In this document: in pieces, positions 2,016 to 26,735 of the stretch
Layout: each line of letters opens with the position of its first letter
Numbering within the stretch: position 1 is the first letter of the stretch
Source: an uncultured virus (IMG/VR IMGVR_UViG_3300033074_001400)
Taxonomy: Duplodnaviria > Heunggongvirae > Uroviricota > Caudoviricetes
IMG/VR virus record: IMGVR_UViG_3300033074_001400
Span: 1-64,000 of that record
Direction: 5' to 3' (one strand)
Length of the DNA stretch: 64,000 bases
The notes under the pieces: generated by a model
The model's input: only the letters and a program-made list of their open reading frames with translations
Database searches by the model: none
Told to the model about the DNA's origin: nothing
Translations under genes and position numbers: made by a program

Positions 2016-2264
2016 ATGAGTGGATCATCTACAACAAAATTATATTTCAATTATCCATCTAATGCAAAAATTCGCATTAAGAAAACAAATTGTTATTATT
2101 CTGATGATTACCCTGCTGTATATAGAATAATTACAGAAAAACTGGATTTTCTTATTCCTAAAGTGGCTGTAATTTTCTCGAAAAATCATGTTTACATTCC
2201 CAATTCAATATATACAGAGAAATTAAATCAATATTATTCATCTATAACAACTAAAATAATATGA
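2016..2264 (+). CDS. hypothetical protein
   Basis: 82-aa ORF, ATGA-coupled to the next gene. Confidence 0.6.
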   Translation: MSGSSTTKLYFNYPSNAKIRIKKTNCYYSDDYPAVYRIITEKLDFLIPKVAVIFSKNHVYIPNSIYTEKLNQYYSSITTKII

Positions 2265-2458
2265 AACCCGGAGATAAAATAAAAAGAATAAAAGATTCAT
2301 TTGGAATAGCTCAATATGGAGAAATATATACAGTAGCTAGTGTCGCTTCTAATAATGTATTATGTTTAGTAGAAGATAATTATAGAAGCTATGATGCAAG
2401 TGCTTTTATAGTAGTAGAATCTTCTGATTCTACGTTTATTCCTGAATTTTTAAATTAA
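2261..2458 (+). CDS. small SH3/KOW-like protein, C-terminal FLN (paralog of 2795 and 3023)
   Basis: KPGDKIKRI...GEIYTV pattern shared with neighbours; ends PEFLN. Confidence 0.75.
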   Translation: MKPGDKIKRIKDSFGIAQYGEIYTVASVASNNVLCLVEDNYRSYDASAFIVVESSDSTFIPEFLN

Positions 2459-2464
2459 ATAAAA

Positions 2465-2791
2465 ATGAAAAAAGAATCAACAATTGATCATGTTATATAT
2501 ATTGCAAAGTTTCCTATAGAAACATCAAAGTATGGTTCAGGACTATCTTATTTCCAAAAGCAATATGGTACTGAAAACATAATACATACGCATAAAAAGG
2601 ATGTATTTACAACTGTTAAATCTGAGATACATCTTACATCTCCGAGTGTAGAATTTGAAGAAGTAACGGATGTGGATACGATGAACTGGTTTTTTAACTG
2701 TATTGAAACAGGTGAATACACTGAGCCTCCTTGGAGAAAATCTCCAACTTCTAATACTAATGTTGAAATGTTTAATGAATTTATAAATTAA
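2465..2791 (+). CDS. hypothetical protein, C-terminal FIN
   Basis: 108 aa; ends NEFIN. Confidence 0.7.
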   Translation: MKKESTIDHVIYIAKFPIETSKYGSGLSYFQKQYGTENIIHTHKKDVFTTVKSEIHLTSPSVEFEEVTDVDTMNWFFNCIETGEYTEPPWRKSPTSNTNVEMFNEFIN

Positions 2792-2794
2792 TTT

Positions 2795-3016
2795 ATGAGA
2801 AAACCATTATTCAATCCCGGAGACAGAGTATTAAGGATAGAAGATGACAGAGGTTGTGTTAAAAAAGGTGAAATCTACACTGTAGAAATGTGTACTACTA
2901 GCACTTTATTATTAGTTAATGTTGGTAGTAGCTATGAACCTTCATTTTTTACACTCGTTTCTAAAAAAGAAGAGAATGTATCTCATGAAGATATATTAAT
3001 ACAATTTATAAATTAA
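2795..3016 (+). CDS. small SH3/KOW-like protein, C-terminal FIN
   Basis: FNPGDRVLRI...GEIYTV; ends IQFIN. Confidence 0.75.
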   Translation: MRKPLFNPGDRVLRIEDDRGCVKKGEIYTVEMCTTSTLLLVNVGSSYEPSFFTLVSKKEENVSHEDILIQFIN

Positions 3017-3022
3017 TTTTTT

Positions 3023-3226
3023 ATGGCAGAATTTAAAAATGGACAAAAAGTTATTAGAACTAGCAGTGATTATGCCTATGTAAAAATAGGTTCTATATAT
3101 ACAGTGAAGTATCAAAATGGACCTAGTTTATATTTAATGGAAGTTGGTGGTGAATATGATCCTTTGTTTTTCTTATTGATAGATATATCTTTAGATAATT
3201 CTGTACCTATGGAATTTCTTAATTAA
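3023..3226 (+). CDS. small SH3/KOW-like protein, C-terminal FLN
   Basis: FKNGQKVIRT...GSIYTV; ends MEFLN. Confidence 0.75.
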   Translation: MAEFKNGQKVIRTSSDYAYVKIGSIYTVKYQNGPSLYLMEVGGEYDPLFFLLIDISLDNSVPMEFLN

Positions 3227-3273
3227 AAACATCTTTTTTCACAATTATTAATAATTTTAAAAATCAAATCAAA

Positions 3274-3735
3274 ATGGCAAAGAACGACAAAAAAGAAACA
3301 GCAATTGCACTCCGTCCTGATTCTTCAGTACCTGAATTCCTGACATCACTCAACCAAAAAATCAGCCGTATGAAACATATCGCTGACAGTGTTTACAAAA
3401 CAAATGGTAAAGTGAGAACAGCATCCGGTGAAATGGACATTAAAACACAAACAAGCCCCGCTGAACTGGTGAAAGCCTTTTCTGGTATCCTTGTTCGTGC
3501 TCAGTCTATGGAACAGGCTTATGAAGTACTGGGCATCACCAACTACCCTGTAGTAAAAATTGATGGTGGTACTGTTGAAGAATGGAAAAGTGATATCCAG
3601 CTCCGCATTGAAATCATCGAACAGAAAGACCAGCTCGATGAACTGAATGCTCTGAAGAAAGAAGCTGAAGAACTGATGGATAAAGAAGATCGTAAAGCTC
3701 TTCTCCTGAAGAAAATGGAAAAATTCGCCGGGTAA
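3274..3735 (+). CDS. hypothetical protein with coiled-coil C-terminus, probably highly expressed
   Basis: 153 aa, host-like codon usage (CTG, CGT, ATC), followed by a terminator. Confidence 0.75.
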   Translation: MAKNDKKETAIALRPDSSVPEFLTSLNQKISRMKHIADSVYKTNGKVRTASGEMDIKTQTSPAELVKAFSGILVRAQSMEQAYEVLGITNYPVVKIDGGTVEEWKSDIQLRIEIIEQKDQLDELNALKKEAEELMDKEDRKALLLKKMEKFAG

Positions 3736-3765
3736 TTGTCTGAAATTGTGTTGAATTGTATGAAT

Positions 3766-3801
3766 AAAAGGGGAGGGTGTTATTTTCACCCTCCTTTTTT
3801 T
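3766..3801 (+). terminator. Rho-independent terminator
   Basis: AAAAGGGGAGGGTG-ttatttt-CACCCTCCTTTTTT. Confidence 0.85.
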
Positions 3802-3815
3802 AATTCTTTTTAACT

Positions 3816-4088
3816 ATGAAGAAAAATGTAAATGACTATAAAACAGCAGATGGTAAAAATGGTATCTACTGCAAAAATGCAAAAGAGTTTGATGATATTG
3901 CTCATTTAATTAATCCTCATCATTTTGCAATAGGTAGATATATGGAGCATGGTTACAATACTATATATCTCTATTCTACTGGATGTGGATGGAATACTCG
4001 TGAACAGGGTGTTGAAAGAGGGTGTATAATACATAATGCTTTTGAATTTCTTGAAGAAACGGAGGACGAACCTCTATTTATAAACTAA
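3816..4088 (+). CDS. hypothetical protein, C-terminal FIN
   Basis: 90 aa; ends EDEPLFIN. Confidence 0.7.
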   Translation: MKKNVNDYKTADGKNGIYCKNAKEFDDIAHLINPHHFAIGRYMEHGYNTIYLYSTGCGWNTREQGVERGCIIHNAFEFLEETEDEPLFIN

Positions 4089-4090
4089 TT

Positions 4091-4220
4091 AACTAAATTG
4101 TAGTATTTCTATGAAATAAGAGATGAGGGAATCATATAACCCAAGATGCGCTCATAAAATCATTTGAGCAAGGGCTTTGTAAATTTAGTCCTATTTGGCC
4201 TATGATACTATAGTTTAGTT
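4091..4220 (+). ncRNA. candidate structured RNA (multibranch)
   Basis: 16-bp closing stem 4091-4106/4205-4220 (two G-U pairs) enclosing hairpins ATGA/TCAT, GCTCA/TGAGC and AGGGCT/AGTCCT. Confidence 0.45.
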
Positions 4221-4234
4221 TTAAAAAAATTATT

Positions 4235-4498
4235 ATGATAACAAGTGATTTTAAAAAAGGCGATTTAGTAAGAATTATTAAAAGACCTAAACAATGGTCA
4301 TCAGGACCCGGATTTTTTATGGATGTAAGAGATCGTGTAACGTATCCTTTTGAGGCAATTATTGAAGATATGATTAACAGAGGAAATCATATAGCCATTT
4401 CTATAAAAAACGGAGGTTGGTCATTAGATTCTCTTATAGAAGGAGGATGTATTGAATTGGCACAACCAAGAGAAACAGAACCCTTATTTATTAACTAA
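4235..4498 (+). CDS. SH3-like hypothetical protein, C-terminal FIN
   Basis: FKKGDLVRII; ends ETEPLFIN. Confidence 0.7.
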   Translation: MITSDFKKGDLVRIIKRPKQWSSGPGFFMDVRDRVTYPFEAIIEDMINRGNHIAISIKNGGWSLDSLIEGGCIELAQPRETEPLFIN

Positions 4499-4541
4499 AA
4501 TTATACACATTCTGTGTAAAGTTTTTAAAACTAAAAAAACG

Positions 4542-4748
4542 ATGAAACAGAGAAATTATGAAGAAACAAGTGTAGTACATGCACTTAATCAAAAACACGA
4601 CTGTCGTGTTAGCGGAGCCAACAAGAAAATTGAAATTTTAAAAGAACCCAATGGAAAGGGTGATATTGGTAATAAAAGTAAGGGAAAGATTGATTTTCTT
4701 TCCAAATACTGCGGATATCAGGTTGTTTTTGTAACATCCTTCCGTTAA
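4542..4748 (+). CDS. small phage protein of unknown function
   Basis: likely start at ATG 4542 (MKQRNYEE) after an A-rich leader; IGNKSKGKIDFL motif. Confidence 0.6.
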   Translation: MKQRNYEETSVVHALNQKHDCRVSGANKKIEILKEPNGKGDIGNKSKGKIDFLSKYCGYQVVFVTSFR

Positions 4749-4786
4749 AACAATTTTCAATTAAATAACTTTTAAAATTTAAAATT

Positions 4787-5059
4787 ATGTCAAGAGGCTC
4801 AATCAGTGAAATCACAATCAGGCAGAGATTCAATACCTTTAATGATGGGTATGCTCCGATTAGTATAGGAACACCTGCTTTTACAAATGCTGTAGATTAC
4901 AGCGTGTTTAAACATACAAAAGAGGAGAAATTGGATAAAGCTGCTGCAAAATATAAACACAAACTATTTTTAAGACACCACTTTAAAGGAAATGTTCCAA
5001 AAAAGGTGCTGAATATACCTCAATACCAATTGGAGACTCCTATAAGGATAACTAATTAA
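4787..5059 (+). CDS. hypothetical protein
   Basis: 90-aa ORF. Confidence 0.6.
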   Translation: MSRGSISEITIRQRFNTFNDGYAPISIGTPAFTNAVDYSVFKHTKEEKLDKAAAKYKHKLFLRHHFKGNVPKKVLNIPQYQLETPIRITN

Positions 5060-5195
5060 CAATGAAAAAAAGGACCGTAAGCAAATATGACAACATGAAG
5101 CACCCGTTAAGTTGGGTGCTTCCTTTTATAGGAATGCTACTTGTAATTTGTTTATATTCATGGATGATTAATGGACACATTAAATAAATCTAAAT

Positions 5196-5507
5196 ATGAA
5201 AAGAACACTCTCCCCAATCCAAAAACTCGGATATACAAGAGTTATATACCGGTTTCAACCAAGAATCAATTTTCATACAGGTCAAATTATTCCTGTAGAA
5301 ACAAAAGTGTTTAACAAATCTCCATGTGATAAGAATAATACACTTAAAAATTATCTTAAATATGGATATAAGTACTCTGAAGCAAGAAAACAGGAAATCA
5401 GAGAAATGTTAATGTTGGGAAAAGCTCCTGTTAAGAAAAGTACAACTCCTGAATTTGTAATTCCAAAGGAGAGTACTTTGTACAAATTTTTAAGTTTTCA
5501 TTATTAA
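5196..5507 (+). CDS. hypothetical protein
   Basis: 103-aa basic ORF. Confidence 0.6.
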   Translation: MKRTLSPIQKLGYTRVIYRFQPRINFHTGQIIPVETKVFNKSPCDKNNTLKNYLKYGYKYSEARKQEIREMLMLGKAPVKKSTTPEFVIPKESTLYKFLSFHY

Positions 5508-5520
5508 ATTTTAAAAAACA

Positions 5521-7326
5521 ATGGCAAATTATGTAAAAGGAAAATGGTATAAAAATACATCGTGGTCAACTCAACATGATTTTTGCAAAGCCAAAAGAGA
5601 CGGTGTTGATGGAGAAAATATAGATTATGATGAAAGAATATATAAAGGTGGTTATTCTAAAGAATATGGTTCATGGGGAGGAACTTATTATCTTAGTGAA
5701 GCTTCTCCCGAAGAATATTCTAAATTCCTACCTGATGGACATCCTGATAAAATATCAACATCAGCATCAATTATAGGAAGATGGTTTGAATGCTTAGTAT
5801 ATGGTGCAAATGGATGTACAGTGGATGGTTATATGGTAAAAAAAGGTGATTATGTTCAAATTGACAGCTTTGATACGCATTTTGGTTTCTATAAATTAAA
5901 AAATGGTAATTATTTAGGAAATGAATCTGAAACACCAAGATTTTTAGCTGGAGAAGAAATACGAGGATTCAGAATAATGCCAATTGGATTTACACCACCT
6001 GAAAAAAGTGTAGAAAAAGTTCCTGAAAAGACATCATCATCATTTGTAGGAAGATATCTTAAAGCATTAAAAGATAATGCAAATCGAGCTGCTGTAAAAG
6101 AAGGACAATATTACGAAATAAAGAAAGATGATGGTACATCAGTGTATATATTTGATTATGCTGGTAAATTTACATATGTATCAAAGGACAAAGCAGAAGA
6201 ATCTTTTAGAGAGAGAAGTGTAGAATTAATGCCTGAAGGATTTAGTCCTACCACTTATATTGCATCAAAACCTTCCAGCTTTGAAATGATTCATAATAAT
6301 TGGTATGTCATAGATAATCTTATAGACCCAAACGGTGGCGCATATAGTGGAGTGATAGGTCATGTATTTCAATATGATGGAAAGAAAGGGTTTAGTGGTG
6401 ATATGTATTATGCATCGGAAAAAACTACATGCTCAGGTGCTTGTTGGAAGAAATCTAATCTAAGACCTGCTACACCTTCAGAAATAGAAAAAGCAGAAAG
6501 GAAATATTTTCCTGAAAAGTTTCTTATTCCAGCAGATGAACCAGCTAAAAAAGAAGATAGTATGATGACATTAGACAGTTATGATGGATATGTAGTGGGG
6601 TCTATACTTTATGCAAAAGATTTAAATAAATGGGTATCTCAATATAAAAACTATTATGATGGTTCTTCATTTATAGGAGTAGGTTCAAGCCATTTTATAG
6701 GAGATAGACATGTCGCAAAAATAGGAATGATAGAAGATAAAGTGTGTTTTCTTGTATCTGGTACTTCAAATGTGTGGATATTAGCTGAAGGATATGTTAA
6801 ATTTTTAAAATCTTTTGATGATGAAGTAGTACATAAATCACCACCATCATCACCAACAACCACAGTATCAAGAGTGAGTTATCTAAGTATAACGGCACAT
6901 GGTGGATTCAATATAGGTGATAACTTAGATGGGAATATAGTTAATGAGTATAGTAATATAATAGGTAATCAATTTTATAATCAAGCTGGTAATCCAAGAT
7001 GGGTTAGCGGAATTGGTATATGGCTATCTAAGGTTGTTATACATAAAATTGCAATTATTGATGGGTATATATGCTATGGAATTGATAGTGGTACATCAGA
7101 CAGAGGATTGTTTTTCATAAAAGCTAATGGTTTTTATTCATACTATAATTTAAGGAAATTTAGAAAAGCTGAATCTAAAACCTCTGAATATATACATGAT
7201 GATGGTTCATATCCTTCAAAATTAAGTAGTGGGATATCATATAGTGATGTAGATGATGGTCTTGAATTTCAGTCTCCTATGATTGTAAAAACCACACCAA
7301 AAAAGCAAAAATTGGTAATATTATAA
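5521..7326 (+). CDS. multi-domain accessory protein with internally repeated modules
   Basis: 601 aa; SIIGRWFECL..IMPIGFTP resembles SFVGRYLKAL..LMPEGFSP; YDGYVVGSIL resembles HGGFNIGDNL. Confidence 0.75.
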   Translation: MANYVKGKWYKNTSWSTQHDFCKAKRDGVDGENIDYDERIYKGGYSKEYGSWGGTYYLSEASPEEYSKFLPDGHPDKISTSASIIGRWFECLVYGANGCTVDGYMVKKGDYVQIDSFDTHFGFYKLKNGNYLGNESETPRFLAGEEIRGFRIMPIGFTPPEKSVEKVPEKTSSSFVGRYLKALKDNANRAAVKEGQYYEIKKDDGTSVYIFDYAGKFTYVSKDKAEESFRERSVELMPEGFSPTTYIASKPSSFEMIHNNWYVIDNLIDPNGGAYSGVIGHVFQYDGKKGFSGDMYYASEKTTCSGACWKKSNLRPATPSEIEKAERKYFPEKFLIPADEPAKKEDSMMTLDSYDGYVVGSILYAKDLNKWVSQYKNYYDGSSFIGVGSSHFIGDRHVAKIGMIEDKVCFLVSGTSNVWILAEGYVKFLKSFDDEVVHKSPPSSPTTTVSRVSYLSITAHGGFNIGDNLDGNIVNEYSNIIGNQFYNQAGNPRWVSGIGIWLSKVVIHKIAIIDGYICYGIDSGTSDRGLFFIKANGFYSYYNLRKFRKAESKTSEYIHDDGSYPSKLSSGISYSDVDDGLEFQSPMIVKTTPKKQKLVIL

Positions 7327-7370
7327 CAAAAATTTTTCATTTTTTATTAATCATTTAAAAAACAAACAAA

Positions 7371-7733
7371 ATGACAACAACACAAAAAGTAACAAACTTC
7401 GCAAAACAAGTGCTGGCCCAATTGAAAGGTGATGAAAACACTGAAATCGCCCTGCGTAATGCCCGTAAAGCTGATTCTGCTTATAGCAGCCAACTCGCAG
7501 CTTTGAGAGCAAAACTCGTGGATGATGAAGTAAATGTAGAAGAAGCTCAGGAAAACTACAACAAAGCTAAGTACCCCAAAACAGTTATTAATGATAATAA
7601 GGCATTCGTACAGAATGTGAAAATTTATTATGAAAGGCTGCAAACAGCGCAGGATACCCTGACAGCAACTAAAGATTCAATTGAATTCTTTGAAGGTCTG
7701 CTGAAAGAAGCTTCCGCTGAAGTTGATGCATAA
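7371..7733 (+). CDS. coiled-coil hypothetical protein, probably highly expressed
   Basis: 120 aa, host-like codons, terminator downstream. Confidence 0.75.
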   Translation: MTTTQKVTNFAKQVLAQLKGDENTEIALRNARKADSAYSSQLAALRAKLVDDEVNVEEAQENYNKAKYPKTVINDNKAFVQNVKIYYERLQTAQDTLTATKDSIEFFEGLLKEASAEVDA

Positions 7734-7755
7734 TTTTGCATTTTATTAAACTTTT

Positions 7756-7793
7756 AAATAGTGCCTCAGATAGATTCTGGGGCACTATTTTTT
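7756..7793 (+). terminator. Rho-independent terminator
   Basis: AAATAGTGCCTCAGA-tagat-TCTGGGGCACTATTT plus Ts. Confidence 0.85.
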
Positions 7794-7807
7794 AAATTAA
7801 AATTATT

Positions 7808-8089
7808 ATGAGAGAGAAACTTCCCGAAAAATGGTGTGTAAAAGCAGATAACACAAAAATTGTACAAAAGTTCTTTTTAACAATGCCTAATGCATCAAGT
7901 GATTATGTAAAACATAAAGTCTATAATGGTAGATATTTTCATTCTGCATTAGAACTATCTAGACATTGGGCTAGGATTTATAGTTGTCCAGTTATTCGTG
8001 AAGGATATGAAGAATTAACAATGGAAGAATTTAAAAGATTAGTGCTTCATATACAAGATAATGATCCTATTCCTGAATTTTTAAATTGA
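7808..8089 (+). CDS. hypothetical protein, C-terminal FLN (paralog of 14806)
   Basis: MREKLPEKWCV...ELTMEEFKRLVL; ends PIPEFLN. Confidence 0.75.
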   Translation: MREKLPEKWCVKADNTKIVQKFFLTMPNASSDYVKHKVYNGRYFHSALELSRHWARIYSCPVIREGYEELTMEEFKRLVLHIQDNDPIPEFLN

Positions 8090-8313
8090 TATTTATGGAT
8101 ATACTTGATGACGTAAGATCACATATTGATGATCTTGAAAATCAAATTGCAGATTTAAAAAAAGAGAATGAAGAATTGGAAAAAAAGCTAGATTCTATAA
8201 ACGATGAACTTTCATCACTCGAAGATGACTATTATTTACTTAAAAATGATTATGACGCTTTGTTGGTTGAGTATAACAAACTAAAAGACCCATTATATCA
8301 ATTTGAAAATTAA
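8086..8313 (+). CDS. coiled-coil protein, C-terminal FEN
   Basis: heptad pattern; ends PLYQFEN; true start may be ATG 8095. Confidence 0.65.
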   Translation: MIFMDILDDVRSHIDDLENQIADLKKENEELEKKLDSINDELSSLEDDYYLLKNDYDALLVEYNKLKDPLYQFEN

Positions 8314-8487
8314 TTATCTATGATTTGTGAAAAATTAAAGTATAAACTAAACACTGCTAAGATTAAAGGAATCAAAAATATAACAATTAAGACACTTACA
8401 GAATCTGAAAAAGAAGAACTGAAAGATTGTGGATATACTTTTAAATTTATCACTGAAAGAAATTATTATATTATAAATTTATGATAT

Positions 8488-9116: not shown

Positions 9117-9451
9117 AACTTAAAGAATTACCTCCAGAATTATTTGATTTAGTTACTCTTCGTTATATAGAATATAAAAATAGAGTAGGTATTACAGGAA
9201 TTACAAAAATACCACAAGGATGTATCGAATTTAGTGTAAGTAGCTTATTTATATTTTCAGGTACTCCAGAATATAAAATTGACGATAAATTTTGGTCAAA
9301 AGTATCAAATTATGATATATCTGAACTTGAAAATATAAAGAAATCACCAGCTTATCCTAACAAATCTTACGATATTGCTATAGATGTAGCGAAGAAAAAG
9401 TTAGATAATATATTAATAGACAAACAATTCTATGACAAATATTGGATATAG
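9113..9451 (+). CDS. tandem paralog 3 (FYxKYWI family)
   Basis: MKLKELPPEL...GTPE..FWS...FYDKYWI; ATG 9113 overlaps the upstream stop. Confidence 0.75.
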   Translation: MKLKELPPELFDLVTLRYIEYKNRVGITGITKIPQGCIEFSVSSLFIFSGTPEYKIDDKFWSKVSNYDISELENIKKSPAYPNKSYDIAIDVAKKKLDNILIDKQFYDKYWI

Positions 9452-9471
9452 CAATTAAAAAATTTTAAAAT

Positions 9472-9708
9472 ATGATATTAGAAATTATTACATTTATTGC
9501 ATCTGTTGCAATTGTTTTAAGCATTTTTATTAAATGGCTGTTTAAAGTAAAATATGAAAATACTGAAACTGAAGAAATATTTAATTCTATAAAACAAGCA
9601 GCTAAAAGCATTAATGTAGTAAGCAGTACACTTTGTGCAATGTTATCAGGTAGAAATCCTAATAAAACTAAAATGAAGTATTATAATCCAAAAGAAAATA
9701 TTACATGA
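9472..9708 (+). CDS. chimeric ORF: N-terminal TM helix plus NUMOD1-like homing endonuclease DNA-binding remnant
   Basis: hydrophobic first 24 aa, then TEEIFNSIKQAAKSINV..STL..MLSG. Confidence 0.55.
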   Translation: MILEIITFIASVAIVLSIFIKWLFKVKYENTETEEIFNSIKQAAKSINVVSSTLCAMLSGRNPNKTKMKYYNPKENIT

Positions 9709-10185
9709 CAAAGTTTACAAAAAGAATAGTAGCTTTTATAATGTGGGTAGAGTATTATTTTAATAAACTTTTTAAATTATAATATGAAAAAATTATATTT
9801 GCTCAAGGAGAATTTCCAACAAGAGAAAAGGCTTGGAATAAAGCTATTGAAGAAACATTAAAACTTATTTAACATGGCAAAATTTGCAAGAAACGCTAAT
9901 CCAGCTTATAAGAAAGCTGTATTGAAAGCTCAATATGACAGATTGTCTGAAACTGATACAAAGACATTGAAACAAGTTCAAAAGGAATACATTGCAAATA
10001 TGTGGCCTAAAGACAGAAAGCTCTTATTTCCAAAGTTAAAACTTTCTTAACATGATAATATTATTTAAAAAAATAAAAAACTTTTTCAGACCAGATAGTT
10101 CTGGAAATTATTGTCTTGATTGTGGTAGAATATACTATAATTGTGTATGTTCTCATGATGATGATGATGAATAAACTTATTTAGT

Positions 10186-10479
10186 ATGGAAAACATTAAT
10201 ATAGAAGCAATTCTTGATAAACATCTACCATACCCCCTTGTAGATCATACAACTATGTATGTAAAAGCAGCTATTAAAGAAATAGTAGAAGCAGTGATAG
10301 ATAAATGTGCTGAAGAAGCTGAAACAAAAGATTTAACTCGTCCAAATTGTGACGATCATACTCCATATCGTGGCCCTTGTATAAGTTGTAGTAATTATCA
10401 CAATCCTGATATAATTATAGGTTCTACAATTAATAAAGAATCTATTTTGAAAGTAAAAGAAATGATTAATTTTTCTTAA
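10186..10479 (+). CDS. hypothetical protein with Cys-rich insert
   Basis: 97 aa; CISC; INKESIL terminus. Confidence 0.6.
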   Translation: MENINIEAILDKHLPYPLVDHTTMYVKAAIKEIVEAVIDKCAEEAETKDLTRPNCDDHTPYRGPCISCSNYHNPDIIIGSTINKESILKVKEMINFS

Positions 10480-10484
10480 ATATA

Positions 10485-10516
10485 TTTGGTAATACCATTT
10501 CTTTTACTTAGCTTTG
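10485..10516 (+). promoter_or_regulatory. Bacteroidota housekeeping-sigma promoter
   Basis: TTTG (10485) - 20 nt - TAGCTTTG (10509). Confidence 0.75.
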
Positions 10517-10520
10517 TAGC

Positions 10521-10772
10521 ATGAAAAGCTACATTATATATAAATTAACCTTTCCTAATGGGAAAGTTTACATTGGTCAGTCTACTAACTTAACCAAAAG
10601 ATTTAAGCAATATGAAAAAAAGCAAACTAAAAGACAACCACTTTTACATAATACTATAGTAAAATATGACTGGAAGGAAGTAATTAAAGAAATTATTTTT
10701 GCAGGATTAAGTAAAGAAGATGCTGATAATCAAGAAATTAGGTTAATTGCGGAATATTTAACTATAAAATAG
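10521..10772 (+). pseudogene. truncated GIY-YIG homing endonuclease (catalytic N-domain only)
   Basis: YIIYKLTFPNGKVYIGQS..RF..Y..E; ends at 83 aa with no DNA-binding tail. Confidence 0.7.
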
Positions 10773-11080
10773 ATTAACGGGTGAAAATAAGTGCTACACT
10801 CATAACTGAGTGAAATTAACAACGGAGGCAGCAAAGTTGGCACGAATACGCTACCTAAGTTCTTTTACCATCTGCAATTATGCAGCAAGCCCTAAGCGAT
10901 ATGCAATTAGCAGGAACGAGAAATCACTACTTAGGTAAAACTCCTGATTGACAGACGGTATTTTTTTTCATACGGTGGACATATAGCAAACTCCCGTTAT
11001 GTCTACATCGGGAATCTTTAAACACTAAAAACTAAACACATGAACACGCCTTTACAAATGTTAATTGACAGAATAAATGA

Positions 11081-11227
11081 TGGTATAAAAATGGATATTT
11101 TTCTGATACAGAATATGAACCAGCTACAGAAAAAGAATGTAATTGGCTTTTAGCTTGTATTCAAGCTGGTAAGTTTGTACCTATATTTGAAATAACAGTT
11201 GATGAATTTTCTTTATATATTAATTAA
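11081..11227 (+). pseudogene. headless C-terminal remnant of a tag-family gene (ends LYIN)
   Basis: WYKNGYFSDTEYEPATEKECNWLLACIQAGKFVPIFEITVDEFSLYIN*, preceded by an in-frame TGA; resembles the C-half of ORF 2465. Confidence 0.55.
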
Positions 11228-11232
11228 AAATT

Positions 11233-11628
11233 ATGAAAAAAAATTATGACATTTTATTAGATGGTCCATCTGGAGGTGGTACTATTCAGAAAACCAAGGC
11301 TAATAATCAAGTAAATGTAATTTATCCAAAAAGAAACAAGTATGGCGTATGGTCATTTGATGATGATGATCTAGGTATTGTGGGTGAACCATTTGTAGGA
11401 GATATTAATGTTATGATTGATATGTACTCAAATGGTAAAAAATCATTAGAAATTTATATTTCTAAAGATATTATTCCTAACTTTACACTCAGTTTGAGTA
11501 GAATTAAAAATTCCGATGTAGAAGGAATGTATTTATTAGATGGTACTGATATTGAAGGATGGCTTTGTCCCTGCCTTCTCAATTATTTTCCTGATTATGT
11601 GGACAAAATATATGCAAAAATTAATTAA
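11233..11628 (+). CDS. DUF6717-like protein
   Basis: WSFDD..L..EPFVG...ID and GWLCPCLLNYF motifs. Confidence 0.7.
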   Translation: MKKNYDILLDGPSGGGTIQKTKANNQVNVIYPKRNKYGVWSFDDDDLGIVGEPFVGDINVMIDMYSNGKKSLEIYISKDIIPNFTLSLSRIKNSDVEGMYLLDGTDIEGWLCPCLLNYFPDYVDKIYAKIN

Positions 11629-11647
11629 TAATTAAAAAGTTAAAAAA

Positions 11648-12490
11648 ATGGCAAAAAAAGTTGCAAAATTTAAAGTGGGTGATCAAGTGGTTGGCAATCA
11701 GTTAGCTAGTTGTTATACTATTACAAAACCGGGATGGATTGGAAAAGTAGTAAAAGTTACAGGTACTGATTATATCTATGTAACAGGTGAACGTGCTGTT
11801 AATGAATTTGTGGATGTTGATAGATTTGATCTATATAAAGCTCCTGCTAAAAAACTGGAAGTGATAAAAATTAAAGATGGTGACTATTTTATCGCTACTA
11901 AAAAAGGTGTAAGAGGCAATGCTGCAAAATGTTGCGGTGTTGTCACTGATTATTATGAAGATATTGCTGTTTTAGCTGGAACAAATTTAGTTGAAGAAAA
12001 TGAAGACGCTGATGCTTTTCACGGATTTCCTACATATCAGGAAGAAAGTTGGGATATAAAAACACAAACCATAAAAGATGCTTTTGGTTTCTCTACATTT
12101 GAAATTGTAAAAGATAAAAGACAGATTGCTATTATTAATGCTCATAAAATGGTAACAGTAGAAGGTCATTCTGTCACTGTAACAAAAGACACAGTAAGTT
12201 TTGGATGTGGTAGTGTTAGGATGAAAAAAGGGCAGGCTGGTGTATTTATTGATGTACTTAAAGATTATGACGATTCTAACACTCTGGATACATTAATAAC
12301 AATCAGAGAAGATTACGGTGATAACATTATTAACGATATTCAGAAATTGCTCACAAAAGTTGTAAGTTCAGGTCAATTTAAAAACGTAAACGAATTTATT
12401 GAATTATGTGATACAATTAGAAATGAGGGTGTTGAATTTAATAATATGGATGATGATGAGCTTCTGAATTTAGAAAAGTTGTTAAAATAA
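11648..12490 (+). CDS. hypothetical protein with N-terminal SH3/KOW-like domain
   Basis: KFKVGDQVVG...GKVVKV; 280 aa. Confidence 0.7.
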   Translation: MAKKVAKFKVGDQVVGNQLASCYTITKPGWIGKVVKVTGTDYIYVTGERAVNEFVDVDRFDLYKAPAKKLEVIKIKDGDYFIATKKGVRGNAAKCCGVVTDYYEDIAVLAGTNLVEENEDADAFHGFPTYQEESWDIKTQTIKDAFGFSTFEIVKDKRQIAIINAHKMVTVEGHSVTVTKDTVSFGCGSVRMKKGQAGVFIDVLKDYDDSNTLDTLITIREDYGDNIINDIQKLLTKVVSSGQFKNVNEFIELCDTIRNEGVEFNNMDDDELLNLEKLLK

Positions 12491-12496
12491 GAGAAC

Positions 12497-14464
12497 ATGA
12501 AGATATTAGTGCATGATATAGAAACCCCAAAAGGTTGTTTTTTGATAAGTGTGTTTGTTCCTGAAACAGGAAAATGGATTGATTTCATTATAAATCAATA
12601 TCAAAATGATTTATATAAACTTATTAAGTTTTTAGATGATAATAGTTACTATTATTTTGTAGGATTTAATAATTTAACATTTGACGGTCAAGTGATCGAA
12701 TGGATTTATAGAAATTATGAGAAATGGGAAAAATTATCAGGTAGGGAGATTGCTGCACTAATATGGGAATATGCTCAAGATGTAATAGACGCAACTAATA
12801 ATGGAGGTTTTCCGCCTTTTCGTGAAGATCAATTAACTTTTAAACCTATTGATGTCTTTAAGATTCAACACTTCGATAATAAAAATCGAAGAGTAGGATT
12901 AAAAAGACTTGAATATGAAATGGATGCAGAAGATGTTCGAGAAATGAAGATTAGTCATTTAAAAGAAGATTTTACTCAAGAGGAAGTGGAAGACCTCATT
13001 TATTATTGCCACAATGACGTTTTAAACACTTATAGAAATTATCTTTATGTAATAGGCGAGGTTGATAACACTATATATAAAGGTAATCATCAGATAGAAA
13101 TAAGAGAAGCAATATCTGAAAAATTTGGATTTAATTGTTTAAATTACTCTGATTCTAAATTGGGAGATGAAATAATTAAAAAACTTTATTGTGAACATAA
13201 TAATATTTCATATACAAATCTTCCTAAAAAGGGAACTTTTAGGAAATTTGTAGAATTCAAGTGGGGAATTCCTAAATATGTCTCTTTTAAAACTCCTGAA
13301 TTACAGGAGTTTTTACAAAGAATGAAAGCTAAAAAAATAGGAGCCGCTGAAGAATTTGAGGAATCTGTAAGAGTATTTAATCAGATACATACTGTTGGTC
13401 TTGGGGGAATTCATAATGTTATTGAAAATAAGCAATATCATTCTGATGATGAATATATTATTATAGACGCAGACGTAACGGGATACTACGCAAGAACTAT
13501 TATAAATAATAAATTTTCTCCTGCTCATTTGAATAAAGAATCATTTATAAATGCGTATAAATGGGGAGTTGAAGAAAGAGAAAGATTAAAACCTGAATCT
13601 AAGAAAGATAAAAAGATAAAAGGTATTGTTAGTGGGTACAAAAATATGGGAAATTCTGTTTATGGTAAAACAGGAGATATGAGTAATTGGTTATACGACC
13701 CTCAATGCAGATTAAATATATGTATAGCAGGAGAAATGTCAATCCTTATGCTAATCGAAGACCAAGAATTAGCTAGAAATCAATGTATTATGAGTAATAC
13801 AGATGGTGCTACATTCTTGGTAAAACGTACAGAAATTGATAAATTTTATGAAATATGTAAAAAATGGTGTGAATTAACAAGTTATGCACTAGAATTTGCA
13901 GAATTTAAAGATATGTGGTTTTTAACAGTGAATGATTATTTAGCTGTTAAGATGGACGGTGAAGTAAAAAGAAAAGGTGATTTCTTAATTGATACAGAGT
14001 TGCATAAAAACAAGAGTTTCAGAGTGATTCCTTTAGGACTATCTGAATATTTTATAAATAATGTACAACCTGAAGAATTTGTTAGTTCTTTTGATAATAT
14101 ATTCCATTTTTGCGGAAGAAGTACAGCAGGAGATACATACTATCATCAGTATTATGATATAGAAGAGAAAAAGTGGAAATCCTTACCAAAACTTATTAGA
14201 TATTATGTATCTAAACAGGGTGTGAAAGTGATGAAAATAGTACGAGAAGATAACGATACAAATGCCTCAGATGCTAATATCAGACCTGCTGAACATAAAA
14301 AAATTATATGTAATAGTCTTATGCCTAGTACTCATAAAGAACATTTAGAGAAAGTAGATAGAGAATGGTATATAGATGAGATCAAAAAGCTTATATATAG
14401 ACTTAGTACAGGTAAAAAGCCAAAAAATATTAAAAAAGACCCTAATCAAATTAATTTATTTTAA
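12497..14464 (+). CDS. polB: family B DNA polymerase (crAss-type) with 3'-5' exonuclease
   Basis: HDIET, GFNNLTFD and YCHNDV exonuclease motifs; DADVTGYY, KNMGNSVYG and NTDG polymerase motifs. Confidence 0.93.
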   Translation: MKILVHDIETPKGCFLISVFVPETGKWIDFIINQYQNDLYKLIKFLDDNSYYYFVGFNNLTFDGQVIEWIYRNYEKWEKLSGREIAALIWEYAQDVIDATNNGGFPPFREDQLTFKPIDVFKIQHFDNKNRRVGLKRLEYEMDAEDVREMKISHLKEDFTQEEVEDLIYYCHNDVLNTYRNYLYVIGEVDNTIYKGNHQIEIREAISEKFGFNCLNYSDSKLGDEIIKKLYCEHNNISYTNLPKKGTFRKFVEFKWGIPKYVSFKTPELQEFLQRMKAKKIGAAEEFEESVRVFNQIHTVGLGGIHNVIENKQYHSDDEYIIIDADVTGYYARTIINNKFSPAHLNKESFINAYKWGVEERERLKPESKKDKKIKGIVSGYKNMGNSVYGKTGDMSNWLYDPQCRLNICIAGEMSILMLIEDQELARNQCIMSNTDGATFLVKRTEIDKFYEICKKWCELTSYALEFAEFKDMWFLTVNDYLAVKMDGEVKRKGDFLIDTELHKNKSFRVIPLGLSEYFINNVQPEEFVSSFDNIFHFCGRSTAGDTYYHQYYDIEEKKWKSLPKLIRYYVSKQGVKVMKIVREDNDTNASDANIRPAEHKKIICNSLMPSTHKEHLEKVDREWYIDEIKKLIYRLSTGKKPKNIKKDPNQINLF

Positions 14465-14467
14465 ATT

Positions 14468-14809
14468 ATGAGAAAATATATAAAACGAATTATAAGAGAA
14501 ATAGACGCTGGTGCTCCATCGAAGAGAAAAAAAGAAAAGAATTGGGTGATAGAATATAAATGGATTTCTCGTGTAGATTTTGAGAAATATCCTAAAGGAT
14601 GGATGTCTAAAAAAGAATATACAGATGAATGGACTGAAGATTCGTGGAATTCTAAATTTAGAACTTCATCTGGAGCAAAGGATCATATATTAAGTCAAAT
14701 ACGACATGAATATGCATCTCCGTATTTACAAGGAAGAGAATGGAGAACTAGAAATATTATTTCTGGAGAAATTATAAATTTTGATAACATTTTAAATCAT
14801 TACAAATGA
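14468..14809 (+). CDS. hypothetical protein
   Basis: 113-aa ORF. Confidence 0.6.
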   Translation: MRKYIKRIIREIDAGAPSKRKKEKNWVIEYKWISRVDFEKYPKGWMSKKEYTDEWTEDSWNSKFRTSSGAKDHILSQIRHEYASPYLQGREWRTRNIISGEIINFDNILNHYK

Positions 14810-15090
14810 GAGAATCATTACCGGATAGGTGGTATATAAACACTACAGAAGTTCCTGAAGCAGGCATATGGTTTAATAAACAAGTAAATACAGTAACTGG
14901 TACATATACTCGTGGAACTTTTGAATATATTTCTTCACATAATGATGATAATATTAAAATAGGTACTACTAAAAATCCACAACTAACTTTTTCAGGAATA
15001 AGAGAACATTCCGAAAAAATTACAAGAGAGGAATTTCTACATTTTATTTTAGGTAAATCAATTGACAACGAACCTTTATTTTTAAATTAA
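14806..15090 (+). CDS. hypothetical protein, C-terminal FLN (paralog of 7808)
   Basis: MRESLPDRWYI...ITREEFLHFIL; ends NEPLFLN. Confidence 0.75.
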   Translation: MRESLPDRWYINTTEVPEAGIWFNKQVNTVTGTYTRGTFEYISSHNDDNIKIGTTKNPQLTFSGIREHSEKITREEFLHFILGKSIDNEPLFLN

Positions 15091-15097
15091 AAAAATT

Positions 15098-15415
15098 ATG
15101 GAAAATTTATCGTTTATATATAACGGACAAACTTTTACAGAAGGATCGAAAGTGAGAGTAATAATTAGCAGTCATAAAGAAGAGCAAGATGGAGAAATAA
15201 CACAAATAACACAAAATTCATCTCAAATTACTTTCTTTGTTCTCTTTAATAATGGCGACAATGGAAGCTCTCCAAAAAACAAAAAGGGATGGAAAAAGTC
15301 ATGGGTGTGTAATATAGGCAAAGGTGGTAAACCTAAAAGTACTGATTTTCCTAAACTATTAAAACTAGCTGTTCCTGAGAATATAATTGAAGTAGATGAA
15401 TCATTTATTAATTAA
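15098..15415 (+). CDS. SH3-like hypothetical protein, C-terminal FIN
   Basis: FTEGSKVRV; ends VDESFIN. Confidence 0.7.
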   Translation: MENLSFIYNGQTFTEGSKVRVIISSHKEEQDGEITQITQNSSQITFFVLFNNGDNGSSPKNKKGWKKSWVCNIGKGGKPKSTDFPKLLKLAVPENIIEVDESFIN

Positions 15416-15429
15416 AAAATTATTTTAAA

Positions 15430-15750
15430 ATGAGTTATGTTAAGATAAAATCATATGATGAATTAGTTAAATATGAAGGAAAAGAAGTTTTCCGTATACA
15501 ATCAAAGAAATATGTACCTCTAATAGTAGGATGTGTAAATGATGAAAGAGGTGATTTTAATTTAAGTGATTTTCGTAATGGATTTCTATATTTAGGTGGA
15601 AATAACAAATCTTTAGATGGGAAACATGATAAAATAGCTAAAATAATGGGTACTAAATATGCATATATAATTAGTGCTAATAGTTCTTTTGGTATAGATT
15701 TATTTATAAAAATAGAAGATATTGAAGTAACTAGTGAATTTTTAAATTAA
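15430..15750 (+). CDS. hypothetical protein, C-terminal FLN
   Basis: ends VTSEFLN. Confidence 0.7.
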   Translation: MSYVKIKSYDELVKYEGKEVFRIQSKKYVPLIVGCVNDERGDFNLSDFRNGFLYLGGNNKSLDGKHDKIAKIMGTKYAYIISANSSFGIDLFIKIEDIEVTSEFLN

Positions 15751-24162: not shown

Positions 24163-24184
24163 TAGATTTTTTCAAAAAAAAGAT

Positions 24185-24219: not shown

Positions 24220-24236
24220 AATTTTAAAAATATTGA

Positions 24237-26733: not shown

Positions 26734-26735
26734 TT

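What the first reader, a model, noticed from the sequence alone, without database searches (positions are those of the whole stretch)
2261..15750. About a dozen mostly unrelated small proteins share a C-terminal F-[LI]-N tag
Seen termini: 2261 IPEFLN, 2465 FNEFIN, 2795 LIQFIN, 3023 PMEFLN, 3816 EPLFIN, 4235 EPLFIN, 7808 IPEFLN, 14806 EPLFLN, 15098 DESFIN, 15430 TSEFLN, with variants 8086 LYQFEN and remnant 11081 FSLYIN. Each tag follows an acidic/Pro linker, and the N-terminal domains belong to several families. Codons vary (TTA/CTT/ATA/ATT; AAT/AAC), which favours selection on the peptide. No enzyme or late gene in the window ends this way. Inference: a modular adaptor system in which variable target-binding heads dock via a common free C-terminus onto one hub. 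Candidate hubs are the Ubl ligase machinery (substrate receptors analogous to F-box proteins, possibly via ORF 27452 or the JAB/E2 extensions), a host protease, or a packaging/secretion route.
Basis: partly seen in the sequence, partly recalled or inferred. Interest (0 to 1): 0.88.

Follow-up and report, generated by a model that had tools for sequence, protein, structure and literature searches.

The report
Shared C-terminal tag on small phage proteins
A dozen small, mostly unrelated early proteins of one phage all end in the same short tail (acidic stretch, then Phe-Leu/Ile-Asn), which most likely plugs them into one common partner that is still unidentified.

Summary
Ten ORFs in the window end in F-[LI]-N, against 0.044 expected among 90 genes. 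Two more lie just upstream of the window in the complete 122-kb genome. There is also one QFEN variant and one LYIN remnant. The tail is longer than three residues: it is acidic, poor in basic residues and rich in proline. It sits on at least 7 unrelated heads and is kept in orthologues of 53-67% identity. It is not a DNA signal: the 12-nt pattern is not enriched outside in-frame gene ends.

The tag is lineage-restricted. Only this phage and its 90% relative carry it in IMG/VR. A distantly related phage (G016) has a parallel array of 11 small ORFs ending in Y-x-I-F. Those sit on 6 head groups, one shared with this window, and use very varied codons. A tag replaced in concert across unrelated heads argues for one co-evolving receptor.

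The E1/Ubl operon does not co-occur with the tag: it has 458 relatives, and the complete ones examined lack the tag. A 153-aa protein (3274-3735) lies inside both arrays and is the best, untested, receptor candidate. The hub remains unknown.

The parts
2261..2458 (+). 65-aa protein, SH3-like head family A, tail SSDSTFIPEFLN
2465..2791 (+). 108-aa protein, head without relatives in the window, tail NTNVEMFNEFIN
2795..3016 (+). 73-aa protein, head family A, tail VSHEDILIQFIN
3023..3226 (+). 67-aa protein, head family A, tail SLDNSVPMEFLN
3274..3735 (+). 153-aa untagged protein, last gene of the unit that holds four tagged genes. Its only relative (36% identity) lies inside the Y-x-I-F array of phage G016. 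Candidate receptor by position and co-occurrence only.
3816..4088 (+). 90-aa protein, tail LEETEDEPLFIN. Homologues of 92% and 59% identity keep EPLFIN.
4235..4498 (+). 87-aa protein, tail AQPRETEPLFIN. It shares only a weak C-terminal-half likeness with 3816.
7808..8089 (+). 93-aa protein, head family B (LPEKWC...EEFKRLVL domain), tail IQDNDPIPEFLN, TGA stop
8086..8313 (+). Coiled-coil protein of about 72-75 aa with the variant tail KDPLYQFEN. An ATG at 8095 is a more likely start than the TTG at 8086.
11081..11227 (+). 5'-truncated remnant of a tagged gene. The open frame ends ...CNWLLACIQAGKFVPIFEITVDEFSLYIN. An intact 97-aa copy is in L002.
14806..15090 (+). 94-aa protein, head family B, tail GKSIDNEPLFLN. 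The L002 orthologue (65% identity) keeps it.
15098..15415 (+). 105-aa protein, tail ENIIEVDESFIN. The L002 orthologue (64% identity) ends ADTLFIN.
15430..15750 (+). 106-aa protein, tail IEDIEVTSEFLN. The L002 orthologue (53% identity) ends DIGNEFLN.

Best explanation
The tail is a short linear peptide motif at the free C-terminus. Its form is roughly [D/E]-x-x-P-[E/L]-F-[L/I]-N-COOH, preceded by an acidic segment that lacks basic residues. It is selected at the protein level.

I propose that it docks a set of otherwise unrelated small early proteins onto one common receptor. I also propose that this receptor co-evolves with the phage lineage and is therefore more likely phage-encoded than a conserved host hub.

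The heads are small modules. In related phages the same modules occur either as stand-alone proteins with other aromatic C-terminal tails or fused into long multi-module proteins. The tag would thus do non-covalently what fusion does covalently: bring many small effector heads to one place.

Shown: the enrichment, the conservation, the restriction to one lineage, the parallel array with another tag, and the lack of a DNA-level signal.

Inferred: that the tail binds anything, and what it binds. The 153-aa protein at 3274-3735 is the only concrete candidate. I give it about 0.15.
For: 1. Enrichment. Ten of 90 genes end F[LI]N against 0.044 expected. There are 12 in the complete genome. Other viral loci never have more than one per locus.

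2. Unrelated heads. With the last 8 residues removed, only 2261/2795/3023 and 7808/14806 match each other. That gives at least 7 groups among the 10.

3. Conservation of the tail where the rest diverges:
- Orthologues of 53-65% identity keep F[LI]N while positions -4 to -6 change (ES to TL, TS to GN).
- 7808 homologues of 62-67% identity keep DNDPIxEFLN.
- 3816 homologues of 92% and 59% identity keep EPLFIN.
- Four further family-A representatives end EFLN.

4. No DNA signal. TTTNTNAAYTRA occurs 14 times on the + strand. Ten of these are in-frame gene ends, and one is intergenic and is the T-tail of a terminator. There are 8 occurrences on the minus strand, none at a gene end. Sequence downstream of the stop is not conserved.

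5. Parallel system. G016 has 11 ORFs within 3.6 kb ending Y-x-I-F, on 6 head groups. Codons vary: Ser AGT/TCA/TCC, Tyr TAC/TAT, Ile ATC/ATT/ATA, Phe TTC/TTT. One of those heads is homologous to window 2795 (E 2e-7).

6. Rarity. Among 228 viral loci, only these two lineages have a hydrophobic C-terminal tripeptide three or more times.

7. The tail is not needed for the fold. Multi-repeat family-A homologues join their modules by plain acidic or Pro-rich linkers.

8. Receptor candidate. The 150/153-aa protein is one of only two non-structural proteins shared by G016 and this phage. It lies inside both arrays and in none of the other loci held.
Against: - No binding was shown to any partner.
- The tag codons are identical in all three orthologue pairs with G002. 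Those pairs therefore cannot separate peptide-level from DNA-level constraint.
- In the window, Phe is always TTT.
- The two arrays lie in distantly related phages: structural proteins are 19-31% identical. Shared presence of the 153-aa protein may therefore reflect common descent of the region and not function.
- No further homologue of that protein was found to test the link. IMG/VR gave 2 loci, both already known. Cultured phages gave none.
- The invariant terminal Asn (12 of 12) is unusual for known docking tails, which end in hydrophobic residues. It could instead point to chemistry at the C-terminus.
- AlphaFold2 gave the 7808 tail a pLDDT of about 75 with a short helix. Packing of the tail back onto its own head is therefore not excluded.
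Confidence: 0.5

Rival explanations
1. Shared degron or timer. The tail is recognised by a host (or phage) protease or adaptor, so that the whole set of early proteins is cleared together when the early phase ends.
For: The tail sits at the free C-terminus, only on small proteins of the early, replication-side strand. An invariant last residue (12 of 12 Asn) fits recognition of the terminus itself. C-terminal degrons are an established class (recalled knowledge, for example the ssrA tag).
Against: The tail does not resemble the ssrA-type ending (recalled motif LAA).
Confidence: 0.15
2. Mimicry of a conserved host hub peptide, so that the phage proteins dock on, or compete at, a host hub. The candidates considered are the FtsZ C-terminal peptide, the SSB tip and the beta-clamp motif.
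For: FtsZ tails fetched here include ...LDIPAFLRKQAD...SIPEFLRLRQ (Prochlorococcus) and, in Bacteroidia...NNSFLHDNVD...GNEFLHKSVD and ...NKFLNKDVD. Compare the tags IPEFLN, NEFIN, ESFIN and the orthologue's GNEFLN. The same phage seems to use other C-terminal hub motifs. Its DNA polymerase ends QINLF. Two of its proteins end LPF, like the Bacteroidota SSB tips DDLPF. The Y-[SD]-I-F tag of G016 resembles the recalled clamp motif QL[SD]LF.
Against: The likeness covers only 3-5 residues and was found after looking at several hubs. The basic residue after F-L in classical FtsZ peptides is Asn here. FtsZ peptides are not terminal. None of the 12 tags fits Q-x-x-L-F, and none ends P-F. The host is unknown: RecA is only marginally closer to Bacteroidota, 40-41% against 37-38% identity. 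Conserved host hubs do not explain lineage-specific tags.
Confidence: 0.1
3. The tail is a leftover of module junctions, kept for a structural reason. The small genes arose by fission of multi-module proteins, and the tail is the old linker plus the first hydrophobic residues of the next module. On this view there is no common partner.
For: The family-B domain is an internal module of 116-920-aa proteins in 25 proteins from 28 distant loci. In those proteins it is usually preceded by [E/P]-E-F-[V/I]-LPEKWC. Junctions such as KSFIPEYVECIK and KTFEPEFVLPEKW resemble the 2261 tail STFIPEFLN. Family-A repeats are joined by ...PEEF-KVGD-type junctions.
Against: A relic would decay, yet the last three residues are invariant in 12 genes, in orthologues and in homologues of 59-67% identity. 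The stop always follows exactly one residue after F-[LI], on unrelated heads. G016 carries a different, equally uniform tail. This view explains the origin of the tail better than its maintenance.
Confidence: 0.1
4. Substrate tag for the phage E1-like (ThiF)/JAB operon. The C-terminal Asn would be adenylated and conjugated or modified, as MccB does with the C-terminal Asn of MccA (recalled).
For: An E1-like ThiF protein is at 26736-27473 (Pfam E 6e-17; PADLOC E1-E2 models). A weak JAB hit lies upstream (E 0.16). The terminal Asn is invariant. No protein of the contig ends in Gly-Gly.
Against: The E1 has 458 relatives in IMG/VR, mostly on contigs of about 100 kb, whereas the tag is in 2 records. 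The E1-bearing genome G003 has 0 of 147 genes with the tag and no other recurrent hydrophobic ending. G005 to G007 show the DNA pattern at control level. The ThiF match starts at residue 19 of a 245-aa protein, which leaves no room for an N-terminal peptide-clamp domain.
Confidence: 0.04
5. Nucleic-acid signal at gene ends (termination, reinitiation, processing or recombination joint), with the peptide only a by-product.
For: The 12 nt are identical in three orthologue pairs of 53-65% protein identity. Phe is always TTT and the stop is TAA in 9 of 10. One homologue (P0006) has QPLFKN followed by 28 residues that equal a frame-shifted reading of the 4235 tail and its downstream DNA. That hints at recombination at the tag.
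Against: The pattern is not enriched anywhere except at in-frame gene ends. The L/I codons differ by up to two bases (TTA, CTT, ATA, ATT). Downstream DNA and spacing to the next start vary from 3 to 146 nt. The upstream acidic and proline character is kept with different codons. The sister tag in G016 uses both Ser codon boxes.
Confidence: 0.03

Closest known systems
Sliding-clamp-binding C-terminal tails of phage T4 gp43, gp55 and gp33
   Same: [quoted passage not shown] These tails dock on one hub (gp45) and can be interchanged (PMC2988020, passages read). This is the same logic as an acidic linker plus a hydrophobic C-terminal tag on unrelated heads.
   Different: T4 has three proteins of known function and a known, phage-encoded hub. 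Here there are twelve tiny proteins of unknown function and no clamp gene was detected in the phage. The tail ends in Asn, not in a hydrophobic residue. The DNA polymerase of the same phage carries a different, clamp-like tail, QINLF.
Bacterial SSB C-terminal tip and the acidic C-terminal tails of phage T7 gp2.5 and gp4 (recalled)
   Same: An acidic segment followed by a short hydrophobic or aromatic anchor at the free C-terminus, read by many partners. Bacteroidota SSB proteins fetched here end ...DDLPF.
   Different: Those tips end in Pro-Phe or Phe. None of the 12 tags does. In this phage, two other proteins end LPF: 15908-16117 and the UDG at 22651-23433.
FtsZ conserved C-terminal peptide
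   Same: An acidic stretch followed by [I/V]-P-x-F-[L/I] or N-x-F-L-[H/N/D]. IPEFL occurs both in the Prochlorococcus FtsZ tail and in tags 2261 and 7808.
   Different: In FtsZ the peptide is followed by a basic residue or by further residues and is not the very end of the protein. The likeness is short. The host is unknown.
Multi-module ('polyvalent'-like) early proteins of related phages
   Same: The same head modules occur in them: the LPEKWC domain, the SH3-like FKPGDKV...GxIYTV...F.LV domain and an AT..E.K.WL..CI module.
   Different: In those proteins the modules are joined covalently and carry no common terminal tag. Here each module is a separate gene ending in the tag. The comparison with published 'polyvalent proteins' is recalled, not read.
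Y-x-I-F array of phage record G016 (IMG/VR, unnamed)
   Same: A tandem array of small ORFs on several head groups with an acidic or proline linker and a uniform aromatic C-terminal tag. It shares a head family and the 150-aa gene inside the array.
   Different: The tag is Y-[S/D/F]-I-F instead of F-[L/I]-N. Six of its 11 members are paralogues. The record is only 46% complete.

Membership tests
Beta-clamp-binding motif (recalled consensus QL[SD]LF) | Gln at position 1, hydrophobic residues at positions 2 and 4, and Phe or Leu as the last motif residue | tested here: not met
   None of the 12 tags fits Q-x-x-[LIM]-F, and all end in Asn. The phage DNA polymerase does fit (QINLF).
Beta-clamp-binding motif (recalled consensus QL[SD]LF) | Binding to the host beta clamp | not testable with these tools
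SSB-tip-like tail | An acidic run ending in [I/L]-P-F-COOH | tested here: not met
   The acidic segment is present (30% D/E). However, 0 of 12 tags end P-F. Bacteroidota SSB tips end DDLPF.
FtsZ C-terminal peptide mimic | The core [I/V]-P-x-F-[L/I/M] or, in Bacteroidia, N-x-F-L-[H/N/D] | tested here: inconclusive
   Six of 12 tags have P-x-F-[LI]. Two have IPEFL. One tag, and one orthologue tail, have NEF[IL]N. The match is short and was found post hoc.
FtsZ C-terminal peptide mimic | Binding to FtsA | tested here: inconclusive
   The complex prediction with a stand-in Flavobacterium FtsA gave no verdict. This counts neither for nor against binding.
Ubiquitin-like protein or E1 substrate | C-terminal Gly or Gly-Gly after a beta-grasp fold | tested here: not met
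   All tags end in Asn. The 7808 model is an alpha/beta fold with no significant PDB match.
Ubiquitin-like protein or E1 substrate | Co-occurrence with the E1/JAB operon | tested here: not met
   The E1 has 458 IMG/VR relatives. The tag is at ORF ends in 2 records. The E1-bearing genome G003 has 0 of 147 genes with the tag.
MccA-like peptide (substrate of MccB-type ThiF enzymes; recalled) | An obligatory C-terminal Asn | tested here: met
   Twelve of 12 tags end in Asn, as do the QFEN and LYIN variants.
MccA-like peptide (substrate of MccB-type ThiF enzymes; recalled) | A partner enzyme with an N-terminal peptide-binding domain ahead of the ThiF fold | tested here: not met
   The ThiF match covers residues 19-117 of a 245-aa protein, so there is no N-terminal extension.
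ssrA-type C-terminal degron (recalled ending LAA) | A non-polar terminal tripeptide of the Leu-Ala-Ala type | tested here: not met
   The tags end F-[LI]-N.

The most novel reading that the evidence does not exclude
A phage-encoded hub-and-plug system. A dozen interchangeable small effector heads each carry a lineage-specific C-terminal plug: F-[LI]-N in this phage and Y-x-I-F in a distant relative. The plug fits one phage-encoded socket, and the 153-aa protein encoded inside both arrays is the candidate socket. This would assemble non-covalently the same kind of multi-module early protein that related phages encode as one long polypeptide. Plug and socket would co-evolve, which would explain why the tag changed in concert on unrelated heads.
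Probability: 0.15. Interest if true: 0.85.

Novelty: new variant of a known kind. Interest (0 to 1): 0.68.

Why it matters
Small early phage proteins are the least understood part of phage genomes. Most act on the host, and almost none can be annotated. A shared terminal tag gives a handle on a whole set at once. One pull-down with a 10-residue peptide could name the partner of twelve orphan proteins.

A second phage with another tag on homologous and unrelated heads gives a natural swap experiment. The result would also show that short C-terminal motifs can be found systematically, by counting recurrent gene endings within single genomes. If the partner is phage-encoded, this would be a modular way of building multi-effector complexes. 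If it is a host hub, it would point to a new vulnerable node in the host.

Tried and rejected
- Complex prediction of a stand-in Flavobacterium FtsA (residues 1-400, 37-row alignment) with the 7808 protein gave ipSAE 0.00 in two runs. There was no verdict and the controls were not run. This counts neither for nor against binding.
- AlphaFold2 of 3816 with a 5-row alignment gave mean pLDDT 44 and is unusable.
- A Foldseek search of the 7808 model against the PDB found no match at E 0.001 or better.
- ESM Atlas look-ups of 7808 and of the 153-aa protein gave nothing usable.
- A PDB sequence search with the last 26 residues of 7808 gave 0 hits.
- Pfam and PHROGs gave nothing for any tagged protein, apart from weak phrog_13152 hits for 2261 and 2795 and sub-threshold coiled-coil hits for 8086.
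- tblastn against cultured phages with 7808, 2795 and the 153-aa protein gave no match.
- A metagenome-contig scan with the family-B alignment found no relative.
- A genome-contig scan with the phage RecA found no relative.
- The apparent 'FTLDLE' tag in G017 turned out to be the end of one paralogous domain family. I dropped it as an example.
It returned 117 loci, none with more than one Y-x-I-[FY] ending, and did not even list G016. It therefore says little about how common such arrays are.
- Two alignments were too divergent for locus searches.
- I also considered and dropped frameshift and readthrough ideas. Only some tags contain TTT TTA, and the downstream gene is in frame at 4 of 9 junctions where about 3 are expected by chance (read).
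Full report
**What is there**

The window is the first 64 kb of a 73,225-bp viral contig of about 30% G+C. A near-identical IMG/VR record, G001, is 122,240 bp and 100% complete by CheckV. It is a circular permutation of the same genome: its two ends meet at about window position 702/703. A 90%-identical relative, G002, is truncated 1.8 kb upstream of its DNA polymerase.

The + strand from the window start to about 41 kb carries small ORFs and replication genes. These include a DNA polymerase, a DnaB-like helicase, a primase, UDG, RecA and a Sak4-like protein. The minus strand beyond 41 kb carries very large structural-type ORFs. The nearest cultured phages share less than 60% identity even in the polymerase.

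- The QFEN variant at 8086-8313 is real.
- The 'remnant' is a 5'-truncated open frame ending DEFSLYIN, with its stop at 11225-11227. An intact 97-aa copy is in G002.
- Two more tagged genes lie just upstream of the window start in the complete genome. They end DIDFLN and NPLFIN.
- That makes 12 in about 157 genes (plus the two genes my greedy gene set missed).

In a curated set of 90 genes, 10 end F[LI]N against 0.044 expected from the internal frequency of the tripeptide (11 of 22,534 positions). Poisson P is about 7e-21, and 10 of the 42 proteins of 130 aa or less are tagged.

As an empirical control I used 4,272 distinct genes from 3.17 Mb of other viral loci. They contain 18 such endings, 12 of them from one orthologous family, and never more than one per locus.

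**The motif is longer than three residues**

Over the 12 tails:
- Position -3 is Phe in 12 of 12.
- Position -2 is Leu or Ile, 6 each.
- Position -1 is Asn in 12 of 12.
- Position -4 is Glu or Leu in 9.
- Position -5 is Pro in 6.
- Position -8 is Asp or Glu in 9.

Positions -12 to -4 are 30% acidic and 3% basic, against 15% and 15% in untagged proteins of the contig.

**The heads are mostly unrelated**

With the last eight residues removed, only 2261/2795/3023 (family A) and 7808/14806 (family B) match each other. Proteins 3816 and 4235 share only a weak likeness in their C-terminal halves. The rest are singletons. None matches Pfam, and PHROGs gives only weak hits of unknown function.

**Peptide or DNA?**

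It fails.
- TTTNTNAAYTRA occurs 14 times on the + strand of the contig.
- Ten of these are in-frame gene ends.
- Two are internal and out of frame, and one is antisense to a gene.
- One is intergenic at 7789-7800. It is simply the T-tail of the strongest terminator-like hairpin of the region, at 7756-7790.
- The minus strand has 8 occurrences, none at a gene end.
- DNA after the stop is not conserved, and the distance to the next start ranges from 3 to 146 nt.
- The L/I codons are TTA, ATA, ATT and CTT. Codon choice at Phe and Asn matches genome usage.

Against this, the 12 nt are identical in all three orthologue pairs with G002 (53-65% protein identity). Those pairs therefore do not discriminate between the two levels.

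The clearest evidence comes from the sister system described below, where Ser in the tag is encoded by AGT, TCA and TCC.

**Conservation**

- Orthologues in G002 keep F[LI]N while the residues just before it change: DESFIN to DTLFIN, and TSEFLN to GNEFLN.
- Three homologues of 7808 at 62-67% identity keep DNDPIxEFLN.
- Homologues of 3816 at 92% and 59% identity keep EPLFIN.
- A third homologue (P0006, 65%) has QPLFKN followed by 28 residues that equal a frame-shifted reading of the 4235 tail and its downstream DNA. That suggests a rearrangement at the tag.

**Distribution**

- An IMG/VR-wide scan for EPLF[LI]N-stop DNA gave 52 stretches. Only the four from G001 and G002 have the pattern at ORF ends together with other tagged ORFs. 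One unrelated locus has a single such ORF.
- The 31 new loci around related DNA polymerases (38% identity or less) have no multi-gene tag.
- Two relatives read in full have 0 of 147 genes (G003, E1-bearing) and 0 of 249 genes (G004, polymerase relative) ending F[LI]N. Neither has any other recurrent hydrophobic ending.

**Where the heads come from**

The family-B domain (LPEKWC...YTEITFEQFKKYVL) occurs in 28 distant viral loci. In 25 distinct proteins of 116-920 aa it is usually an internal module, often repeated and mixed with other small modules. In those proteins it is typically preceded by [E/P]-E-F-[V/I]. Junctions such as KSFIPEYVECIK or KTFEPEFVLPEKW resemble the 2261 tail STFIPEFLN.

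Family A is an SH3-like FKPGDKVxRI...GxIYTV...YD..F.LV domain. It has 187 representatives at E of 0.001 or better in the 1.84-billion-protein library. Of the 150 listed:
- 51 are stand-alone proteins of 90 aa or less.
- 38 have two or more copies of the domain.

In the multi-copy proteins the modules are joined by plain acidic or proline-rich linkers, so the tail is not needed for the fold.

Among the 51 stand-alone proteins:
- The four nearest, apart from the window's own three, end EFLN.
- More distant ones carry other recurrent aromatic endings: Y-x-I-[F/Y] in 8, Trp-containing endings in 8, and LFTL, FESL and NFLP in 2 each.
- 34 of 51 have an aromatic residue within the last four positions.

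The tail may well have begun as a module junction. That explains its origin, not its strict maintenance.

**A parallel array with another tag**

A locus fetched through family A (G016, a 40.6-kb record, 46% complete, 36% G+C) holds 11 ORFs of 71-142 aa within 3.6 kb. All end Y-[S/D/F]-I-F before TAA and are preceded by acidic or proline linkers such as EPNYSIF and EESYSIF.
- With tails removed they form six groups: one six-member paralogous family and five singletons.
- One singleton is a family-A protein homologous to window 2795 (E 2e-7).
- Another shares, weakly (E 0.01), the AT..E.K.WL..CI module with the LYIN protein of G002.
- Internal Y-x-I-F occurs at 4 of 11,557 positions in that record's longer ORFs.

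The only other case is the Lys-rich ending KLK.

G016 is a distant relative: structural proteins are 19-31% identical. So within a homologous kind of array the tag has been replaced in concert on unrelated heads. That is what co-evolution with one common reader predicts. A passive relic or a conserved host hub predicts it poorly.

**Candidate reader**

Only two non-structural proteins are shared between G016 and this phage at E below 0.001. One is a methyltransferase-like protein (window 37971-38522). The other is a 150/153-aa protein (window 3274-3735, 36% identity).
- It lies inside both arrays.
- In the window it is the last gene of the unit that holds 2261, 2465, 2795 and 3023, between terminator-like sites at 1824-1856 and 3766-3800.
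- It was found in none of the other viral loci held.
- Attempts to find more homologues failed, so the association rests on two related genomes and is only a lead.
- Its N-terminal VPEFL is matched by VPEVL in G016, so it does not follow the tag.

The E1-like ThiF protein (26736-27473) is real, and a weak JAB signal lies upstream. However, it has 1,207 homologues at E of 1e-5 or better in the protein collection and 458 relatives in IMG/VR, mostly on contigs of about 100 kb.
- The E1-bearing genome G003 has no tagged gene.
- G003 and G005 to G007 (E1 relatives) and G004 (polymerase relative) show the DNA pattern at control level.

The tag therefore does not co-occur with the Ubl operon. The invariant Asn recalls MccA/MccB chemistry (recalled), but the ThiF protein has no N-terminal peptide-binding extension.

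**Host-hub mimicry**

I fetched ftsA-ftsZ and ssb loci from named genomes.
- FtsZ tails include ...LDIPAFLRKQAD and ...SIPEFLRLRQ. In Bacteroidia they include ...NNSFLHDNVD, ...GNEFLHKSVD and ...NKFLNKDVD.
- These resemble IPEFLN, NEFIN and ESFIN over 3-5 residues.
- The likeness is short, was found post hoc, and does not explain the terminal Asn.
- The host is unknown: RecA is 40-41% identical to the two Bacteroidota genomes tested against 37-38% for three others.

**Known analogy**

The closest documented analogy is T4. There gp43, gp55 and gp33 carry highly similar, interchangeable hydrophobic and acidic C-termini, behind divergent linkers, that bind the gp45 clamp (PMC2988020, passages).

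I searched the paper library three times. I saw no description of a shared C-terminal tag on arrays of small early phage proteins in the listings returned. These searches were narrow and do not establish absence from the literature.

**Verdict**

The tag is a real, strongly non-random, lineage-specific C-terminal peptide tag on at least seven unrelated small early proteins, with a parallel system in a second phage.
- Most likely it is a docking motif for one co-evolving receptor (0.5).
- The receptor is unidentified.
- The Ubl reading is not supported by co-occurrence.
- I file it as a new variant of a known kind, namely shared C-terminal docking tails.

Noticed in passing
window 12497-14464; L013 3625-5487; L022 9364-11304; L032 9956-12058: The phage DNA polymerase ends ...PNQINLF, which resembles the recalled beta-clamp-binding motif. 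Related polymerases end QLTLFN, QLNLFN and QISLFN, that is, the same motif plus a terminal Asn. No clamp gene was detected in the window.
   Followed up: partly
window 15908-16117 and 22651-23433: A 69-aa protein ends ...KDKPLPF and the UDG-family protein ends ...DKSLPF. LPF occurs twice among the 90 gene ends. Bacteroidota SSB proteins fetched here end ...DDLPF, so these could be SSB-tip-like docking tails.
   Followed up: partly
window 25411-28621: An operon with a 440-aa protein (weak JAB hit, E 0.16), a 245-aa ThiF/E1-like protein and a 389-aa protein without any family. The E1 has 458 relatives in IMG/VR, mostly on contigs of about 100 kb, so it is a widespread phage gene whose substrate is unknown.
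   Followed up: partly
L002 1838-4151: In the 90% relative the DNA polymerase is split into two ORFs (1838-3160 and 3486-4151). About 325 nt are inserted at the conserved ...SNTDGATF... site. This could be an intron or a small mobile insertion. The same record has an extra 264-aa GIY-YIG ORF (7374-8168) right after a shortened helicase gene.
   Followed up: no
window 24163-25410: About 1.2 kb between two + strand genes has no ORF in my gene set. The only ORF there is an 86-aa antisense one. I did not examine this stretch.
   Followed up: no
window 32444-33160: A protein with a strong match to the N-terminal domain of dATP/dGTP diphosphohydrolase (PF18909, E 6e-30). This may bear on nucleotide-pool manipulation or modified DNA.
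   Followed up: no
window 5521-7326: A 601-aa protein without a family. It begins with the KGKWY...FLPDGHPDKI module seen at the start of multi-module proteins in L004, L007, L011 and L020. So this phage also keeps one long multi-module early protein beside the tagged single modules.
   Followed up: partly
P0006 (homologue of window 3816-4088): Its tail reads QPLFKN and then runs on for 28 residues. Those residues equal the frame-shifted reading of the 4235 tail and the DNA after it (compare the spurious ORF 4452-4748). This looks like a deletion or recombination between two tag sequences, or an assembly error.
   Followed up: partly
G001 1926-2252 (minus strand; upstream of the window start): A 108-aa protein ends ...TDIPQFFSKPV. 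This is a tag-like IPQFF followed by four more residues, possibly a decayed or variant tag.
   Followed up: no
L133-L194 (about 6.5 kb upstream of the E1 gene in many contigs of about 100 kb): One conserved protein of about 97 aa ends ...GQRQIIFIN in at least 12 related contigs. It accounts for most of the background F[LI]N endings and occurs as a single gene per genome.
   Followed up: no
L217, L253, L255, L259, L260, L272 (Bacteroidota ftsA): FtsA proteins of Flavobacteriia and relatives end ...K[D/E]FLDNAE, and their FtsZ proteins end ...NNSFLHDNVD. So both division proteins share an x-F-L-[D/H]-(D)-N ending in this phylum.
   Followed up: no
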